Origin: a virus
Taxonomy: Duplodnaviria; Heunggongvirae; Uroviricota; Caudoviricetes
DNA: 16,850 nt
Virus record (IMG/VR): IMGVR_UViG_2778261504_000002
Span: 1-16,850 of that record
Direction: 5' to 3' (one strand)
The notes beneath the pieces were generated by a model. The model was not told the origin of the DNA and searched no databases. It worked only from the letters and a program-made list of their open reading frames with translations. Shown here piece after piece: positions 6,356 through 11,148 of this stretch; within the stretch, counting starts at the first letter, position 1, and the number at the start of each line of letters is the position of its first letter. The position numbers and the translations under genes are program-made.

Positions 6356-6739
6356 TTACCTCGCCGTCAGTTGTTTTGATTTCCGGTAGCCTGCCGCGTA
6401 AATGGCTACGTTTGGAAGACATACACCAGTTTCTGGTTGCTTATGTCCAAACTCATTCGCGTACACAATGGCCGCTCGCTCCAGATTGCGTCTGTATTCT
6501 TTCTGTTGCCAGATCACGTCCTGTGCCATGAACTTAATTGGCTTAGCGTCTTCTATGCGCTCAGGCGTTTCGTGAGTACCTTTAGCCTGAATCTGCGCTC
6601 TGCTTAGAGTAGGGCGGTGTAATACTTCTGAACTTATTGCTTCTTCGCGGGCCAGTACGCCGTTAGCTAATGCCTTTGCCTTTAAACGCTCACGACGACG
6701 AGAACGTGAATTGCCTTTGAACTGAGTTCTGCGTGTCAT
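6356..6739 (-). CDS. N: N-type transcription antitermination protein (P22 gp24 family)
   Basis: Track ORF 6356..6841 trimmed to the ATG at 6739, preceded by AGGAGG. The N-terminus has an arginine-rich motif (TRRTQFKGNSRSRRRERLKAKA). The C-terminus LPNVAIYAAGYRKSKQLTAR closely matches the end of P22 gp24 (LLPGVALYAAGHRKSKQITAR) as I recall it. Confidence 0.75.
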   Translation of the reverse strand: MTRRTQFKGNSRSRRRERLKAKALANGVLAREEAISSEVLHRPTLSRAQIQAKGTHETPERIEDAKPIKFMAQDVIWQQKEYRRNLERAAIVYANEFGHKQPETGVCLPNVAIYAAGYRKSKQLTAR

Positions 6740-6868
6740 ATAGACCTCCTGATGAACTTTGGTGGTGAATACAGCCGGGCGACTAACTCCGGTCGCGTAA
6801 TCATTGCAAAGCGCCTCCGCCGAGAAGGTTAGCTTCTGCATTCACCCCAAAGTTCACTTTGGTTATTG

Positions 6869-6950: not shown

Positions 6951-6998
6951 ACTTTATCGGAATGATAAATTAATGGCAATAGCAAAATGATAAATTCT
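6951..6998 (-). promoter_or_regulatory. pL promoter with OL operator repeats
   Basis: Minus strand reads TTGCCA-17 nt-TAAAGT (-35 at 6974..6979, -10 at 6951..6956). The 10-mer ATGATAAATT occurs at 6962..6971 and 6987..6996 and again in the cI-cro intergenic region. Confidence 0.55.
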
Positions 6999-7170
6999 CT
7001 TGGTTTTCAAATATCGTATTGATTCTTATGGTGTTTTATTTTGTTGTAGGAATTCGACAGGATAAATAAAGAGATTTGAGGGAGATCTGGATTGCGTTGT
7101 TTAGCAAGTTGTATCTATTTATTTTTCAACAAATACAATTGGTTATGTGTTTTTAGGTGTGGGGATCGTG

Positions 7171-7200
7171 AGGCAAAGAAAACCCGGCGCTGAGGCCGGG
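7171..7200 (-). terminator. intrinsic terminator downstream of the TAC module
   Basis: CCCGGC-N6-GCCGGG hairpin at 7183..7200, followed on the minus strand by TTTTCTTTG. Lies 10 nt after the stop of the chaperone gene. Confidence 0.55.
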
Positions 7201-7209
7201 TGGGGAATT

Positions 7210-7614
7210 TCACTTATTACTGTTCGTTTCCATGGGATTGGCCAAGAAATCAAAATAAGGCAGAGTGAACCTACCAAGGTTTGACATGAGGATAATTTGC
7301 TCGGCATATGTTTTTATATAGGGATATGCCATATTGGGAGCAATGGACCTTACCTCATATGATTTTGCCATTTCATGAGAAAAATCATCTTCTGACCGGA
7401 AGTCAAAGTCGTATGTGATGTCCATCTCAAGCCTGCCTTCAATAGTTACGGAGGCAAAATATCTCACTCTAAATAGCTTTGAATCCTTCACATTAGTGTA
7501 AAGTTCATTATTTAGATTAACGGTTGTTTTTATGGCTTTTTTTGCTGTTGAATCGCCTTCTAGCCGTGTCATAACCAAGCGTTCAACTTTTTTGCTAATG
7601 AGTTCAATTTTCAT
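7210..7614 (-). CDS. SecB-like chaperone of a toxin-antitoxin-chaperone (TAC) system
   Basis: 134-aa ORF whose start overlaps the antitoxin stop (ATGA). C-terminal region IAPNMAYPYIKTYAEQIILMSNLGRFTLPYFDF resembles SecB ([25 protein letters not shown]) and the M. tuberculosis TAC chaperone Rv1957 (YPYIREYVYDLTGRLALPPL). AT-rich compared with flanking phage DNA. Similarity judged from memory. Confidence 0.6.
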   Translation of the reverse strand: MKIELISKKVERLVMTRLEGDSTAKKAIKTTVNLNNELYTNVKDSKLFRVRYFASVTIEGRLEMDITYDFDFRSEDDFSHEMAKSYEVRSIAPNMAYPYIKTYAEQIILMSNLGRFTLPYFDFLANPMETNSNK

Positions 7615-8267
7615 GGTAATAATAAGTAATTTCCGTCAGAAGTCATTTCGTCATTCAGGTTGCTAGCCGCTGTGAAACTTGATGACAAGTTACTTATCAA
7701 AGAAAAAACATTCCGTTTTTCTTTGCATTTGCCATTACCCCTTACTGCGCTGAACAACATTTTTGAAAAGTAAGATTCTGTAGCCTTTTCAGCGAAATAA
7801 GCAGAAGGTGATGTGACGGCTGACTCACACCGAGCAATGACGCTAGTCATGGCTGTTTCTTCTTCCTCTGCGTCAACTAGGCTCCATTCAATTGCGCTCA
7901 TATCTTGAATTAAGATATCTGCAGGAATTCCAAGTCCGTCATGTAGTCTACGGATCATTGAAAGACTTAATGGACGCTTACGATTTAAGACCTCAGATAC
8001 TTTAGATGCTGAGCCAATGTATTGTTTCATATCGGCATAAGAGAGGCCTTGTTGATCCATACGGAACTTGATTGCTTCTATGGGATCTGGCTTGTCCATA
8101 GGGAACTCGCGTGACTCATAGTGCTCGATAAGCAAGCCTAGTAGTTCAAACTCATCAAAATCTTCAGTTCCAGGTTGTAAATCACTAGACGCAAGTTCAA
8201 TGAGCCTTTCCATAGCTGCAGCATGCTCTTCACTATTTTTAATGATGCGCCAGCTAGTTCGATTCAT
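7611..8267 (-). CDS. higA: HigA-like HTH antitoxin with a roughly 95-aa C-terminal extension
   Basis: Residues about 60-125 (IKFRMDQQGLSYADMKQYIGSASKVSEVLNRKRPLSLSMIRRLHDGLGIPADIL) resemble E. coli HigA. The ORF continues about 95 aa beyond the point where canonical HigA ends. Start overlaps the toxin stop. Confidence 0.7.
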   Translation of the reverse strand: MNRTSWRIIKNSEEHAAAMERLIELASSDLQPGTEDFDEFELLGLLIEHYESREFPMDKPDPIEAIKFRMDQQGLSYADMKQYIGSASKVSEVLNRKRPLSLSMIRRLHDGLGIPADILIQDMSAIEWSLVDAEEEETAMTSVIARCESAVTSPSAYFAEKATESYFSKMLFSAVRGNGKCKEKRNVFSLISNLSSSFTAASNLNDEMTSDGNYLLLP

Positions 8268-8551
8268 TTAAGCCTCCACTTGTCGTACTCTGCATGAGTT
8301 CCAACTCTTTCAACTATGACCATTCCTGCCTGGTAAACAACTTGGACAACGAGCCGATAGTTATTGCCTTTTATATTAAAAATTACCCTGTTGTTAGGAA
8401 GGAAGTCGGCAGAATTAAATCTATTCCGTATGTCTTGAGTCGTTTTCCAGTTTTCTCTTATCACTTCATCATACCAAGAGTCTAAAGCCCCCTTGGCCTG
8501 ATTGTGCTTCCGGCTAAAACTGTGAAGCTTCTCTACGTTTAAGACCTTCAT
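8264..8551 (-). CDS. higB: HigB-like toxin (RelE/ParE-fold mRNA interferase)
   Basis: 95-aa ORF. C-terminal RVIFNIKGNNYRLVVQVVYQAGMVIVERVGTHAEYDKW aligns with E. coli HigB (HYVFNVGGNELRVVAMVFFESQKCYIREVMTHKEYD) as I recall it. Toxin-first order and tight coupling to the antitoxin. Confidence 0.75.
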   Translation of the reverse strand: MKVLNVEKLHSFSRKHNQAKGALDSWYDEVIRENWKTTQDIRNRFNSADFLPNNRVIFNIKGNNYRLVVQVVYQAGMVIVERVGTHAEYDKWRLK

Positions 8552-8563
8552 AATCCGATTTTG

Positions 8564-8605
8564 TTCCCTCTTTGGGAATTATAGATTCATTTCCCATAAA
8601 GGGAA
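8564..8605 (-). promoter_or_regulatory. TAC promoter with paired inverted-repeat operators
   Basis: Perfect TATAAT on the minus strand (plus 8578..8583), flanked by two copies of TTCCC-N5-GGGAA (8564..8578 and 8591..8605), within 60 nt upstream of the higB ATG. The proximal repeat also covers the AGAGGGAA ribosome-binding site. Confidence 0.45.
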
Positions 8606-8687
8606 TCTGTATTTTTATCCAGAAATGCTATGTACATCACCCAAACGTCTCTTCAGGCCACTGGTTACCAGCTATGTGACGATGAAG

Positions 8688-9392
8688 TCACGAACTTTTC
8701 AGCCACTCCCTTGCCTCGATGTCATCCAGATGGCGAGATTGCTTCAGAATACCAGCCACATACTCCACCTTTGCTACTTGATGATAAGGCAACGTTATTG
8801 GCCTGTGGTCCTGGTTGATGCTTGTAAATTGGTATTCTCCGTCTCTGTCATAGCCAAGAACTTTGATCATGTTGTGTCCTTCAACAGTTCTGACAAACAC
8901 CTCATCACCCGGGAATACTTTGGTGTTAGGCTCAATGAGTACATATTCTCCTGATTTTATTCTGGGCCACATGCTGTCTCCTTTCACACGAAGACCAAAG
9001 GCATCTGGATCATCGCTATAAATTTTGAGCCACCCATCGCGCTCTTCGGTCATCTCGATGGCACCATCAACACCAAGAATTGCCTCACCAACCACGCGCA
9101 CTAACCCTTTTCTTACCTGACCGACAAAAGTTAAAGAATCTGAGCATGATGCAATTGGTGTTACATCATGTACCAAATCAAGCCACCCATTAGGTAACCC
9201 AAGCGCGGCTTCAAATTTTCTTGCTAGTTTATCCCCTATGTTTCGAGTGCTTTTTTCACCGGAGACTTGCGTGAGTTGAGAAGGGCTAACCCCAAGCTTA
9301 TCGGCAAAGCTTGCATTAGTGTTACCCGCGATTTTTTTATGCTCATCTAGCAAAAACGCCAGATTCGATTTGCGAATATCTTTGTTTTCCAT
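8688..9392 (-). CDS. cI: CI-like prophage repressor (HTH plus S24 LexA-like peptidase domain)
   Basis: 234-aa ORF transcribed away from cro. N-terminal HTH (NASFADKLGVSPSQLTQV) and a C-terminal region with the GDSMWP Ser-protease motif and a downstream Lys, as in autocleaving repressors. Sequence is unlike lambda, 434 or P22 repressors as far as I recall. Confidence 0.85.
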   Translation of the reverse strand: MENKDIRKSNLAFLLDEHKKIAGNTNASFADKLGVSPSQLTQVSGEKSTRNIGDKLARKFEAALGLPNGWLDLVHDVTPIASCSDSLTFVGQVRKGLVRVVGEAILGVDGAIEMTEERDGWLKIYSDDPDAFGLRVKGDSMWPRIKSGEYVLIEPNTKVFPGDEVFVRTVEGHNMIKVLGYDRDGEYQFTSINQDHRPITLPYHQVAKVEYVAGILKQSRHLDDIEAREWLKSS

Positions 9393-9419
9393 CTCACAAT
9401 TTTCCCTCTATTTAGCAAA

Positions 9420-9500
9420 TGGATAAATACGCAATATGATAAATTTACATTGCGGATGATTTATCAAAATGGTAAAGTTGTTCTGTGTGATAAACGGAGG
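9420..9500. promoter_or_regulatory. OR operator region with pR (and presumably pRM)
   Basis: Plus strand reads TTGCGG-17 nt-TAAAGT (-35 at 9450..9455, -10 at 9473..9478) upstream of cro. Operator-like repeats ATGATAAATT (9436..9445), ATGATTTATCA (9456..9466) and TGATAAAC (9488..9495). Architecture mirrors pL. Confidence 0.5.
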
Positions 9501-10209: not shown

Positions 10210-11148
10210 ATGACAAATACAGCAAAAATACTCAACTTCGGCAGAGGTAACTTTGCCGAACAGGAGCGTAATGTGGCAGATCTCGATGATGGTTACGCCA
10301 GACTATCAAATATGCTGCTTGAGGCCTATTCAGGCGCAGATCTGACCAAGCGACAGTTTAAAGTGCTGCTTGCCATTCTGCGTAAAACCTATGGGTGGAA
10401 TAAACCAATGGACAGAATCACCGATTCTCAACTTAGCGAGATTACAAAGTTACCTGTCAAACGGTGCAATGAAGCCAAGTTAGAACTCGTCAGAATGAAT
10501 ATTATCAAGCAGCAAGGCGGCATGTTTGGACCAAATAAAAACATCTCAGAATGGTGCATCCCTCAAAACGAGGGAGGTTCCCCTAAAATGAGGGACATCC
10601 CTCAAAACGAGGGAAAATCCCCTAAAACGAGGGATAAAACATCCCTCAAATTAGGGGATTGCTATCCCTCAAAACAGGGGGACACAAAAGACACTATTAC
10701 AAAAGAAAAAAGAAAAGATTATTCGTCCGAGAATTCTGGCGAATCCTCTGACCAGCCAGAAAACGATCTTTCTGTGGTTAAACCGGATGCTGCAATTCAG
10801 AGCGGCAGCAAGTGGGGAACAGCAGAAGACCTGACCGCCGCAGAGTGGATGTTTGACATGGTGAAGACCATCGCACCATCAGCCAGAAAACCGAATTTTG
10901 CAGGGTGGGCTAACGATATCCGCCTGATGCGTGAACGTGACGGACGTAACCACCGCGATATGTGTGTGCTTTTCCGCTGGGCCTGCCAGGACAACTTCTG
11001 GTCCGGTAACGTGCTGAGTCCGGCCAAACTCCGCGACAAGTGGACCCAGCTCGAAATCAACCGTAACAAGCAACAGGCAGCCGTGACAGCCAGCAAACCA
11101 AAACTCGACCTGACAAACACAGACTGGATTTACGGGGTGGATCTATGA
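10210..11148 (+). CDS. O: replication initiator O
   Basis: Near-identical to lambda O along its length (MTNTAKILNFGRGNFA...TNTDWIYGVDL), with an extra 13 aa (GGSPKMRDIPQNE) in the iteron-encoded segment. Confidence 0.95.
   Translation: MTNTAKILNFGRGNFAEQERNVADLDDGYARLSNMLLEAYSGADLTKRQFKVLLAILRKTYGWNKPMDRITDSQLSEITKLPVKRCNEAKLELVRMNIIKQQGGMFGPNKNISEWCIPQNEGGSPKMRDIPQNEGKSPKTRDKTSLKLGDCYPSKQGDTKDTITKEKRKDYSSENSGESSDQPENDLSVVKPDAAIQSGSKWGTAEDLTAAEWMFDMVKTIAPSARKPNFAGWANDIRLMRERDGRNHRDMCVLFRWACQDNFWSGNVLSPAKLRDKWTQLEINRNKQQAAVTASKPKLDLTNTDWIYGVDL
10559..10682 (+). repeat. ori-lambda iterons (six copies) with adjacent AT-rich region
   Basis: Six tandem roughly 18-19 bp repeats of the TCCCTCAAAACGAGGGA type inside O, followed by the AT-rich stretch at 10683..10720. 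Canonical lambda has four as I recall. Confidence 0.85.

What the first reader, a model, noticed from the sequence alone, without database searches (positions are those of the whole stretch)
8552..8687. Own promoter with paired inverted repeats upstream of the toxin gene
The 136-bp gap between the repressor stop and the higB start contains a perfect TATAAT (minus strand) bracketed by two copies of TTCCC-N5-GGGAA spaced 27 bp apart, one also overlapping the ribosome-binding site. This is the layout expected for antitoxin autoregulation, and it means the module can be expressed independently of pRM readthrough.
Basis: seen in the sequence. Interest (0 to 1): 0.45.

Follow-up and report, generated by a model that had tools for sequence, protein, structure and literature searches.

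The report
Self-repressed promoter of HigBAC defence cassette
The short gap after the repressor gene of this Shiga-toxin phage holds the private promoter and two antitoxin-binding sites of a published three-gene anti-phage toxin-antitoxin-chaperone cassette, an ordinary self-regulating layout that had not been described for this cassette.

Summary
Two exact TTCCC-N5-GGGAA palindromes lie at 8591..8605 and 8564..8578, 27 bp apart, around a perfect minus-strand TATAAT (8583..8578). Shuffled sequences of this size give about 0.002 such same-half-site pairs.

The window is the H-19B-type immunity region of Stx phages (ST2-8624, BP-4795). The genes below the gap are HigB, HigA and a SecB-like chaperone. 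Each differs by one residue from the published E. coli NT1F31 HigBAC anti-lambda defence system. That paper did not analyse the native promoter.

The promoter and operator block belongs to the mobile cassette. The cassette starts at about 8633 and travels behind unrelated cI genes. In Serratia it sits away from any cI.

Among 69 distant higBA loci, 62 have an exact nTCCC-N5-GGGAn site within 110 bp upstream of higB. This is about 465-fold the background rate. The outer half-site base changes together with the HigA recognition helix.

E. coli K-12 higBA has the same layout with TTGCC-N5-GGCAA sites, and its promoter is experimentally autorepressed by HigA.

The exception is the claimed overlap with the ribosome-binding site, which is doubtful. 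Readthrough from pRM probably also occurs. This is a new member of a known kind, of modest interest.

The parts
8688..9392 (-). cI-type repressor gene (234 aa, HTH plus S24 peptidase), H-19B / ST2-8624 immunity type. This is the upstream neighbour and is not part of the cassette.
   Evidence: Pfam Peptidase_S24, E 3.8e-16. Annotated as CI in GQ499358, KU238070 and AP012535.
8634..8687 (-). 3' flank linked to cI. It contains GTGAC-N6-GTCAC across the cI stop codon. It is shared with prophages that have the same cI but different cargo. No intrinsic terminator was detected on this strand.
   Evidence: About 380 E. coli genomes match only window 8634/8639..8760. The alignment with L017 diverges after 8634. 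The terminator scan found nothing on the minus strand here.
8607..8633 (-). Upstream end of the HigBAC cassette. The conserved block CTGGATAAAAATACAG (8622..8607) has an A-tract at 8616..8612, which is -45..-41 from the predicted start. It may be an UP-element-like sequence.
   Evidence: Homology among cassettes from different genera starts here, while the DNA further upstream is unrelated. The UP-element reading is inference from position and composition only.
8591..8605 (-). Distal operator O1, TTCCC-TTTAT-GGGAA. Its left half, TTCCCT (8605..8600), sits where the -35 hexamer should be (3 of 6 matches, 16-bp spacer to the -10).
   Evidence: Exact palindrome. Conserved in 9 of 10 HigBAC cassettes. 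Present at -53..-55 in most two-site gammaproteobacterial relatives. K-12 O1 is TTGCCA, which is its -35 with the same 16-bp spacer.
8578..8583 (-). -10 hexamer TATAAT (6 of 6).
   Evidence: Invariant in all 10 HigBAC cassettes. Among 15 distinct two-site promoters the hexamer abutting the proximal operator is T13 A12 T11 A12 A10 T14 of 15.
8564..8578 (-). Proximal operator O2, TTCCC-AAAGA-GGGAA. It covers -7 to +8 relative to the predicted start. The predicted transcription start is near 8571.
   Evidence: Exact palindrome. Conserved in all 10 cassettes. A site at -26..-28 from the ATG is the commonest position in the whole family. The start site is inferred from the position of the -10.
8552..8563 (-). 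12-nt leader between O2 and the higB ATG. It is variable among relatives and has only a weak GGA (8556..8554) as a Shine-Dalgarno.
   Evidence: Relatives carry AGGGG or AAGGG in this position.
8264..8551 (-). higB, a RelE-fold mRNA interferase toxin (95 aa).
   Evidence: Pfam HigB_toxin, E 4.5e-30. One residue different from WP_112844290.1 of E. coli NT1F31. PADLOC PD-Lambda-2_A, E 2.5e-42.
7611..8267 (-). higA, the antitoxin (218 aa). It has an N-terminal helical plus HTH DNA-binding part (about residues 1-121) and a C-terminal chaperone-addiction (ChAD) tail (122-218). This is the predicted repressor of O1 and O2.
   Evidence: Matches PDB E. coli and Shigella HigA, E about 6e-5. One residue different from WP_112844289.1. 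W128, F158, F188 and Y214 are present. The recognition helix SKVSEVL is invariant in the cassettes.
7210..7614 (-). higC, a SecB-like chaperone (134 aa).
   Evidence: One residue different from WP_112844288.1. Y39, N41, R49 and D71 are present. The AlphaFold model has pLDDT 86.9. The best PDB matches are M. tuberculosis Rv1957 SecB-like chaperone and SecB, TM about 0.7-0.77.
7182..7201 (-). Intrinsic terminator that closes the cI-higBAC transcription unit. It lies upstream of OL and PL (OL sites at 6953..7026).
   Evidence: 7-bp stem with 6 G-C pairs followed by TTTCTTT. OL coordinates come from GQ499358 mapped onto the window.

Best explanation
The segment 8552..8633 is the cassette's own sigma-70 promoter with two HigA operators. 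It drives the higB-higA-higC operon.

Anatomy:
- The -35 is TTCCCT at 8605..8600 (3 of 6 matches).
- A 16-bp spacer separates it from the -10, TATAAT at 8583..8578.
- The predicted start is near 8571, which gives a leader of about 20 nt.
- An A-tract at -45..-41 may compensate for the weak -35.
- The operators are two 15-bp palindromes, O1 (8605..8591) and O2 (8578..8564). O1 lies over the -35 (about -34 to -20). O2 lies over the end of the -10 and the start site (-7 to +8).
- The half-site centres of each palindrome are 10 bp apart, one helical turn. That fits a dimer of the HTH antitoxin HigA.

Mechanism:
- HigA, alone or in complex with HigB, occupies O1 and O2 and excludes RNA polymerase. 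The cassette therefore sets its own low steady-state expression, whichever prophage or cI gene lies upstream.
- HigA stability depends on the chaperone HigC. The published trigger, lambda major tail protein gpV, titrates HigC. Loss of HigA should then both free HigB and derepress the promoter.

What is shown and what is inferred:
- Shown here: the sequence anatomy, its conservation as part of the mobile cassette, the family-wide operator motif, its change together with the recognition helix, and the identity of the module.
- Taken from the literature: autorepression of the K-12 homologue, and the TAC mechanism of the NT1F31 system.
- Inferred: the exact start site, HigA binding at this locus, the role of HigB in repression, derepression on infection, and the relative contributions of this promoter and pRM.
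For: - Exact repeats and the TATAAT are at the stated coordinates and far exceed chance.
- The module is HigBAC. There is one amino-acid difference per protein from the NT1F31 proteins used by Mets et al., and the NT1F31 locus has the same promoter except for one leader base.
- The cassette boundary is at about 8633, so the promoter and operators move with the cassette.
- Ten cassettes from Escherichia, Klebsiella, Citrobacter, Salmonella, Serratia, Pantoea and metagenomes keep TATAAT and the half-sites. The repeat spacers, the inter-operator segment, the leader and all upstream DNA vary. The upstream neighbours are unrelated cI genes or, in Serratia, not a cI gene at all.
- 62 of 69 distant higBA loci have an exact nTCCC-N5-GGGAn site within 110 bp upstream of higB. 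The density is 9.6 per kb against 0.02 per kb elsewhere in the same loci.
- Two-site promoters keep a 27 to 28 bp spacing and a TATAAT-like hexamer abutting the proximal site.
- The recognition helix changes together with the half-site: SKVSE with TTCCC, NRVYE with GTCCC, GRVSE with CTCCC, and K-12 SMVSR with TTGCC.
- K-12 higBA has two TTGCC-N5-GGCAA-type sites. Its -35, TTGCCA, lies inside O1, with a 16-bp spacer to the -10 TATCAT just before O2.
- The K-12 start site was mapped and the promoter is repressed by HigA (PMC2814082).
- The repeats do not resemble this phage's CI operators. There is no Rfam match in the region.
Against: - There is no direct evidence at this locus: no mapped start site, no binding assay and no reporter data.
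- The -35 matches only 3 of 6, and the consensus scanner did not call a promoter.
- The helix and half-site groups are also clades, so the joint change is confounded with phylogeny.
- The centre-to-centre distance of 27 bp puts the two bound dimers on roughly opposite DNA faces. Cooperative binding is therefore not implied.
- No terminator lies between cI and higB. In a lysogen much of the higBAC mRNA could still come from pRM.
- Mets et al. obtained defence with the cassette plus 150 bp of upstream DNA under a constitutive Ptet promoter. That says nothing about the activity of the native promoter.
Confidence: 0.85

Rival explanations
1. The repeats act mainly at the RNA level. In transcripts that read through from pRM and cI, O1 and O2 pair with each other to form a 14-bp hairpin 12 nt upstream of the higB start. 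This hairpin lowers HigB translation or creates a processing site. Protein binding would be secondary.
For: The minimum-free-energy fold of 8690..8540 pairs the two repeats, with z = -2.9 against shuffles. The repeats are 87% complementary to each other here and 100% in the Serratia-type cassettes. No terminator lies between cI and higB, so such transcripts should exist.
Against: Any two palindromes with the same half-sites will pair, so the hairpin follows automatically from two operators. Outside the half-sites, complementarity of the spacers is not conserved: 0 to 5 of 5 among 15 distinct two-site promoters. Most family members have a single site, which cannot form this hairpin. A transcript from the cassette's own promoter would lack O1. 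K-12 higBA has the same layout without an upstream cI.
Confidence: 0.07
2. The TATAAT is not an active promoter. The cassette is expressed only by readthrough from pRM. HigA bound at the repeats works as a transcriptional roadblock that meters how much readthrough enters higBAC.
For: The -35 is weak, and the promoter scan did not call a promoter. There is no terminator in the gap. In lambda, rexAB in the same position is transcribed from pRM (established knowledge).
Against: The TATAAT-like hexamer, with conserved A2 and T6, is kept next to the proximal operator across genera and in non-phage higBA loci. The cassette also occurs where no cI precedes it. The K-12 homologue with the same geometry has a mapped start site and an active promoter.
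Confidence: 0.06
3. The repeats are bound by a protein other than HigA, such as the phage CI or Cro or a host factor, or they are a chance feature.
For: No binding experiment exists for this locus.
Against: The CI operators of this phage are of the TTTATC-N5-TGATAAA type, and their best match in the gap is 12 of 17. The motif follows higBA, not cI, across many phyla and tracks the HigA recognition helix. The chance expectation is about 0.002 per window.
Confidence: 0.02

Closest known systems
E. coli K-12 higBA (ygjN-ygjM) promoter and operators (Christensen-Dalsgaard et al. 2010, PMC2814082)
   Same: The antitoxin is homologous (PDB 5ifg and 5ycl match the HTH). The gene order is toxin first. 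There are two 15-bp palindromes of 5-N5-5 format. The distal palindrome supplies the -35, a 16-bp spacer follows, and the -10 lies just before the proximal palindrome. For K-12 the start site was mapped and HigA was shown to repress the promoter.
   Different: The half-site is TTCCC here and TTGCC in K-12. The spacing is 27 bp here and 29 bp in K-12. The -35 is much weaker here (3 of 6 against 5 of 6) and the -10 is perfect. The recognition helix differs (SKVSE against SMVSR). Here the antitoxin carries a 97-aa ChAD tail and needs a third gene, a chaperone. The locus is a prophage cassette next to cI.
E. coli NT1F31 HigBAC toxin-antitoxin-chaperone defence system (Mets et al., bioRxiv 10.1101/2024.02.24.581848)
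   Same: It is essentially the same system. HigB, HigA and HigC differ by one residue each. The position downstream of the same cI is the same, and the promoter region is identical except for one leader base. Published properties: HigC is needed for neutralisation, the system defends against lambda-vir and Bas25, and it is triggered by the tail protein gpV.
   Different: The paper does not analyse the native promoter or operators. The word 'operator' does not occur in it, and the constructs used Ptet or PBAD. The host here is a Shiga-toxin-converting phage (ST2-8624, BP-4795 and many Stx1a phages).
Proteus vulgaris Rts1 hig promoter with O1 and O2 (PMC12266136)
   Same: Two inverted-repeat operators overlap the -35 and the -10 of a toxin-first hig operon. 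Each is bound by an HTH HigA dimer.
   Different: The HigA and HigB sequence families are unrelated, and the operator sequence is different. Operators of 21 bp are reported there, and binding was shown to be non-cooperative. None of this has been tested here.
Lambda rexAB in the cI-to-PL interval (established knowledge, and as noted by Mets et al.)
   Same: Both are defence cargo placed directly downstream of cI, co-oriented with it, and ending at a terminator before OL and PL.
   Different: The proteins are unrelated. The regulation proposed here is an antitoxin-repressed cassette promoter rather than mainly pRM.
PD-Lambda-2 and PD-T4-9 (CmdTAC) models in PADLOC
   Same: HigB and the N-terminal part of HigA match PD-Lambda-2 A and B (E 2.5e-42 and 3.8e-50). 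HigC matches PD-T4-9_C (E 3.2e-11).
   Different: The PD-Lambda-2_B profile is 402 positions long, and only its first 125 match. The toxin of PD-T4-9 is an ADP-ribosyltransferase, not HigB. No promoter comparison was made.

Membership tests
Autoregulated type II toxin-antitoxin promoter (K-12 HigA type) | [quoted passage not shown] | tested here: met
   O1 lies over the -35 position, and O2 lies over the end of the -10 and the predicted start.
Autoregulated type II toxin-antitoxin promoter (K-12 HigA type) | The operon encodes an antitoxin whose DNA-binding domain is homologous to a proven autorepressor | tested here: met
   The HigA HTH matches E. coli and Shigella HigA structures, E about 6e-5. 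The Pfam HTH_3 match is weak. K-12 HigA represses its promoter (PMC2814082).
Autoregulated type II toxin-antitoxin promoter (K-12 HigA type) | The operator motif is conserved at orthologous loci and tracks the recognition helix | tested here: met
   62 of 69 loci have the motif, a 465-fold enrichment. Helix and half-site groups agree. These groups are also clades, so this is supporting evidence, not proof.
Autoregulated type II toxin-antitoxin promoter (K-12 HigA type) | The antitoxin binds the operators, and transcription is repressed by the antitoxin | not testable with these tools
   This needs EMSA or footprinting and reporter fusions.
Sigma-70 promoter | -10 hexamer close to TATAAT | tested here: met
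   6 of 6 at 8583..8578. It is invariant in 10 cassettes, and the consensus over 15 relatives is TATAAT.
Sigma-70 promoter | -35 hexamer close to TTGACA at 16 to 18 bp | tested here: inconclusive
   TTCCCT matches 3 of 6 with a 16-bp spacer. The scanner needs at least 4 of 6 and did not call it. An A-tract at -45..-41 may compensate (inference).
Sigma-70 promoter | A transcript 5' end about 7 nt downstream of the -10 | not testable with these tools
   No start-site data for this phage were found in the searchable literature.
HigBAC toxin-antitoxin-chaperone (TAC) system | HigB_toxin-family toxin as the first gene | tested here: met
   PF09907, E 4.5e-30.
HigBAC toxin-antitoxin-chaperone (TAC) system | The antitoxin has a C-terminal chaperone-addiction extension carrying the four aromatic residues | tested here: met
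   Residues 122-218 are present, with W128, F158, F188 and Y214.
HigBAC toxin-antitoxin-chaperone (TAC) system | The third gene has a SecB fold | tested here: met
   The model has pLDDT 86.9. The top PDB matches are 5mtw (M. tuberculosis Rv1957) and SecB structures, TM about 0.7-0.77, probability 1.00. Sequence searches alone gave no SecB match.
HigBAC toxin-antitoxin-chaperone (TAC) system | Near-identity to the experimentally validated NT1F31 proteins | tested here: met
   One substitution in each of HigB, HigA and HigC.
HigBAC toxin-antitoxin-chaperone (TAC) system | Chaperone-dependent neutralisation and anti-phage activity | not testable with these tools
   Published for the NT1F31 allele only.
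CI operator of this phage (H-19B type) | 17-bp site of the TTTATC-N5-TGATAAA type | tested here: not met
   The best match of any annotated OL or OR site in the gap is 12 of 17.
Intrinsic terminator between cI and higB | A G+C-rich hairpin followed by a T-run on the coding (minus) strand | tested here: not met
   None was found on the minus strand in 8552..8687. The only hit is O1 read on the plus strand.
Known structured RNA (Rfam) | A match to any covariance model | tested here: not met
   No match with E up to 1 in 8300..8900.

The most novel reading that the evidence does not exclude
The operator pair may be more than housekeeping autoregulation. It could be the transcriptional arm of the defence trigger. 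When an infecting phage's tail protein titrates HigC, HigA is lost, and the cassette promoter, which has a perfect -10, fires. This would add a burst of new higB mRNA to the toxin already released. In uninfected lysogens, HigA bound at O1 and O2 would also insulate the cassette from pRM readthrough. That would make it a self-contained, plug-and-play unit that can be swapped behind any cI. A further step would be that the recognition-helix and half-site code (SKVSE/TTCCC, NRVYE/GTCCC, GRVSE/CTCCC, SMVSR/TTGCC) keeps co-resident HigA paralogues from cross-regulating each other.
Probability: 0.3. Interest if true: 0.5.

Novelty: new member of a known kind. Interest (0 to 1): 0.3.

Why it matters
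HigBAC is an experimentally validated anti-phage system. This window shows it sits in the immunity region of clinically important Shiga-toxin phages, including the Stx2a phage of O157:H7 strain 86-24, BP-4795 and many Stx1a phages. In those phage records its genes are mostly annotated as hypothetical or not annotated at all.

Knowing its native promoter and operators tells experimenters three things: which 80 bp to keep for physiological expression, where to look for the transcription start, and which bases to mutate to uncouple autoregulation from defence.

The family-wide TCCC-N5-GGGA operator, and its apparent pairing with the HigA recognition helix, gives a simple predictive rule for a very widespread class of higBA loci.

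None of this overturns current understanding. It fills in a regulatory detail of a known kind.

Tried and rejected
- A single-protein scan of genome contigs with HigA found nothing. The repeat with an alignment gave 80 loci.
- Sequence-only searches for the third gene gave no SecB match: Pfam, NCBIfam and phmmer against the PDB. A structure model was needed to show the SecB fold.
- A literature search for the K-12 operator sequence strings found nothing relevant. A search for 'HigBAC' found no study of its promoter. One paper search failed because a search term was too short.
- CI-operator identity for the repeats was rejected.
- A terminator between cI and higB was rejected.
- A known RNA family in the gap was rejected.
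- Extra HigA sites elsewhere in the phage were rejected, at least for 50 of 56 kb of Stx2a_WGPS9.
- The O1:O2 RNA hairpin was kept only as a minor rival, because spacer complementarity is not conserved.
- The proximal repeat as the Shine-Dalgarno was judged unlikely, because of its distance from the ATG and because relatives carry a separate Shine-Dalgarno.
- I did not look for public start-site datasets covering strain 86-24 or NT1F31 beyond the text searches above.

Full report
**1. What is in the sequence**

The minus strand of the window reads, in order:
- a cI-type repressor gene (9392..8688; S24 peptidase domain);
- a 136-bp gap (8687..8552);
- three translationally coupled ORFs: 8551..8264 (95 aa), 8267..7611 (218 aa) and 7614..7210 (134 aa);
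- a strong intrinsic terminator (7201..7182);
- the OL operators (6953..7026) and gene N.

In the gap, read on the minus strand:
- TTCCC-TTTAT-GGGAA lies at 8605..8591.
- TATAAT lies at 8583..8578.
- TTCCC-AAAGA-GGGAA lies at 8578..8564.
- The higB ATG is at 8551.

The repeats are 27 bp apart start to start. They are the only two matches in the window, even with one mismatch allowed. They are also the only two exact matches in 50 kb of a complete Stx2a phage with the same region.

Simulated sequences of the same size and composition gave 0.01 exact sites per window. They gave 0.002 pairs of same-half-site palindromes within 60 bp.

**2. Where the window comes from and what the module is**

The stretch 7100..9500 is 100% identical to several Stx phages. 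These are ST2-8624 (the Stx2a phage of O157:H7 strain 86-24), BP-4795, Stx2a_WGPS9 and many Stx1a-converting phages. The region is annotated as the H-19B-type immunity region.

The first ORF after the gap is a HigB_toxin-family protein (E 4.5e-30). The second has an HTH that matches the E. coli and Shigella HigA crystal structures. It also has a 97-residue C-terminal tail.

The third ORF has no sequence-level family. Its AlphaFold model (pLDDT 86.9) matches the M. tuberculosis Rv1957 SecB-like chaperone and SecB itself (TM about 0.7-0.77).

This is the HigBAC toxin-antitoxin-chaperone system described by Mets et al. (bioRxiv 10.1101/2024.02.24.581848):
- The NT1F31 chromosome carries the same locus behind the same cI.
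- HigB, HigA and HigC differ from the published WP_112844290, WP_112844289 and WP_112844288 by one residue each.
- All functionally probed residues are present: HigA W128, F158, F188 and Y214, and HigC Y39, N41, R49 and D71.

The paper shows chaperone-dependent neutralisation, defence against lambda-vir and Bas25, and triggering by the tail protein gpV. It places the system in the variable locus downstream of cI that holds rexAB in lambda.

The paper does not analyse the native promoter. The word 'operator' is absent, and constructs used PBAD or Ptet with 150 bp of upstream DNA. No later paper in the searchable library does so either.

**3. The promoter and operator block belongs to the cassette**

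About 380 complete E. coli genomes share the 3' end of this cI plus about 54 bp downstream, but then diverge. The breakpoint is after window position 8634. So 8634..8687 goes with cI, and everything from about 8633 downwards goes with HigBAC.

I retrieved homologous cassettes through the chaperone. They came from Klebsiella, Citrobacter, Salmonella, Serratia, Pantoea, an unclassified enterobacterium and metagenomes. Chaperone identity to the window ranges from 85% down to 50%.

These cassettes sit behind at least five different cI and cro types. In Serratia the cassette is not next to any cI.

In all ten, homology begins at CTGGATAAAA (8622). TATAAT and the proximal repeat are invariant in their specified bases. 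The distal repeat is intact in nine. The repeat spacers, the inter-operator segment and the 12-nt leader all vary. This is the footprint expected of a -10 hexamer and two protein-binding sites.

**4. Family-wide test**

A scan of one genome per species with the HigA alignment returned 80 loci with 37-69% HigA identity. They span Gamma-, Beta- and Deltaproteobacteria, Verrucomicrobiota, Chlorobiota, Bacteroidota and others.

In 69 of these loci I could place a HigB ORF with at least 110 bp of DNA upstream:
- 62 have an exact nTCCC-N5-GGGAn palindrome within 110 bp upstream of higB (73 sites; 9.6 per kb).
- Only 7 sites occur in the remaining 338 kb of the same loci (0.02 per kb).
- By eye, the seven loci without an exact site have a site with one mismatch.

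The commonest position is 26 to 28 nt before the ATG, as here.

Fifteen distinct promoters have two sites. Twelve of them are spaced 27 to 28 bp apart. The hexamer abutting the proximal site has the consensus T13 A12 T11 A12 A10 T14 of 15.

The outer base of the half-site changes together with the recognition helix:

| Half-site | Recognition helix |
|---|---|
| TTCCC | SKVSE |
| GTCCC | NRVYE |
| CTCCC | GRVSE |
| TTGCC (K-12) | SMVSR |

These groups are also clades, so this is consistent with HigA reading the half-sites but does not prove it.

**5. The closest characterised relative**

The E. coli K-12 higBA upstream region has:
- TTGCC-AATCT-GGCAA and TTGCC-AATTT-GTCAA, 29 bp apart;
- a -35 of TTGCCA formed by the left half of the distal site;
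- a 16-bp spacer;
- a -10 of TATCAT ending one base before the proximal site.

The window has the same geometry: TTCCCT, a 16-bp spacer, and TATAAT overlapping the proximal site by one base.

For K-12, primer extension mapped a single start upstream of higB. lacZ fusions were active only without the TA locus and were shut off by HigA. The authors marked the inverted repeats as putative binding sites (PMC2814082).

The unrelated Rts1 hig system also has O1 and O2 over its -35 and -10 (PMC12266136).

**6. Most likely mechanism**

The segment 8552..8633 is the cassette promoter.
- With the -10 at 8583..8578, the start should be near 8571. This is inference.
- O1 then covers about -34 to -20, and O2 covers -7 to +8.
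- Each palindrome has half-site centres one helical turn apart, which fits one HTH dimer.
- Occupancy of either site should exclude RNA polymerase.
- The weak -35 (3 of 6) explains why the scanner missed the promoter. The conserved A-tract at -45..-41 may act as an UP-like element. This too is inference.

HigA needs HigC to stay functional, and gpV competes with the ChAD tail for HigC. Infection should therefore both release HigB and derepress the promoter. That last step is my inference and is untested.

**7.

The proximal repeat is probably not the ribosome-binding site.
- Its GGGAA ends 12 nt before the ATG, and GAGG ends 15 nt before it.
- Relatives have a separate AGGGG or AAGGG in the variable leader.
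- Here only a weak GGA remains. That would fit a toxin kept at low translation. Mets et al. cloned HigBA into pBAD33 with a weak Shine-Dalgarno, and cloned higB alone without one because it was the more toxic of the two toxins they studied.

'Independent of pRM' should be read as 'not dependent on pRM'. No terminator lies on the coding strand between cI and higB, so readthrough is likely as well.

**8. Rivals**

- RNA hairpin. In a readthrough RNA the two repeats pair as a 14-bp hairpin. Any two operators with the same half-sites would do this. Spacer complementarity is not conserved, and most relatives have a single site.
- CI operators. The phage's own operators are of the TTTATC-N5-TGATAAA type and do not match the gap.
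- Known RNA. There is no Rfam match.
- Roadblock only. A model with no promoter is hard to square with the conserved -10, with the cassettes that lack an adjacent cI, and with the K-12 data.

**9. Verdict**

The finding is real and its interpretation is essentially right. It describes the autoregulatory promoter of an already published defence cassette, built like the promoter of its K-12 homologue. It is a new member of a known kind.

Three things add modest value:
- It places HigBAC in major Stx phages, where it is largely unannotated.
- It defines the cassette boundary.
- It gives a family-wide operator rule.

Interest is 0.3.

Noticed in passing
window 7210..8551 (minus strand): The 'toxin module' is a three-gene toxin-antitoxin-chaperone system. 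It is HigBAC, one residue per protein different from the published E. coli NT1F31 system. It sits in Shiga-toxin phages. In KU238070.1 the higB CDS is not annotated at all, and in other records the three genes are 'hypothetical' or 'transcriptional regulator'.
   Followed up: yes
window 10558..10680 (inside the O gene, 10210..11148): Six direct copies of a 17-nt unit, ATCCCTCAAAACGAGGG, spaced 19 to 24 bp apart. They look like lambda-type origin iterons. From memory, lambda has four, not six.
   Followed up: partly
window 8634..8687: The roughly 54 bp after the cI stop, including GTGAC-N6-GTCAC across the stop codon, are shared by about 380 E. coli genomes that carry other cargo after the same cI. 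One example is two small hypothetical genes in strain 2014C-3051 (locus L017). The recombination breakpoint is sharp, after 8634. Part of this flank (GGCCTGAAGAGACG) recurs at the 3' end of a different cI gene in locus L011.
   Followed up: partly
loci L019-L098, 110 bp upstream of higB: The HigA recognition helix and the operator half-site change together across the family: SKVSE with TTCCC, NRVYE with GTCCC, GRVSE with CTCCC, and K-12 SMVSR with TTGCC. This may be a specificity code, but it is confounded with phylogeny.
   Followed up: partly
loci such as L043, L053, L059, L077 and L083 (betaproteobacterial higBA): These have a single GTCCC-N5-GGGAC operator between a TTGC-type -35 and a TAnnnT -10 that ends about 7 nt before the ATG. 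This suggests that higB mRNAs are leaderless in this clade.
   Followed up: no
window 9411..9494: GQ499358 annotates four repressor sites on the right side (OR3, OR2, OR1 and an extra OR0 at 9478..9494), against three on the left.
   Followed up: no
window 6356..6841 (minus strand): The longest N ORF is 161 aa. Database records annotate N as 127 aa (384 nt), starting further downstream, and NT1F31 has a different, shorter N.
   Followed up: no
window 7210..8551: PADLOC models match. HigB and the first 125 residues of HigA hit PD-Lambda-2 A and B. HigC hits PD-T4-9_C, the chaperone of CmdTAC. This hints that PD-Lambda-2 shares the HigB and HigA-N module with a different C-terminal partner.
   Followed up: no
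locus L010 (Pantoea), about 54 nt upstream of higB: In the most divergent cassette (chaperone 50% identical) the distal operator has decayed to TTCAC-TTTTA-GGTGT. The proximal operator and the TATAAT are intact. This suggests the proximal site is the essential one.
   Followed up: no
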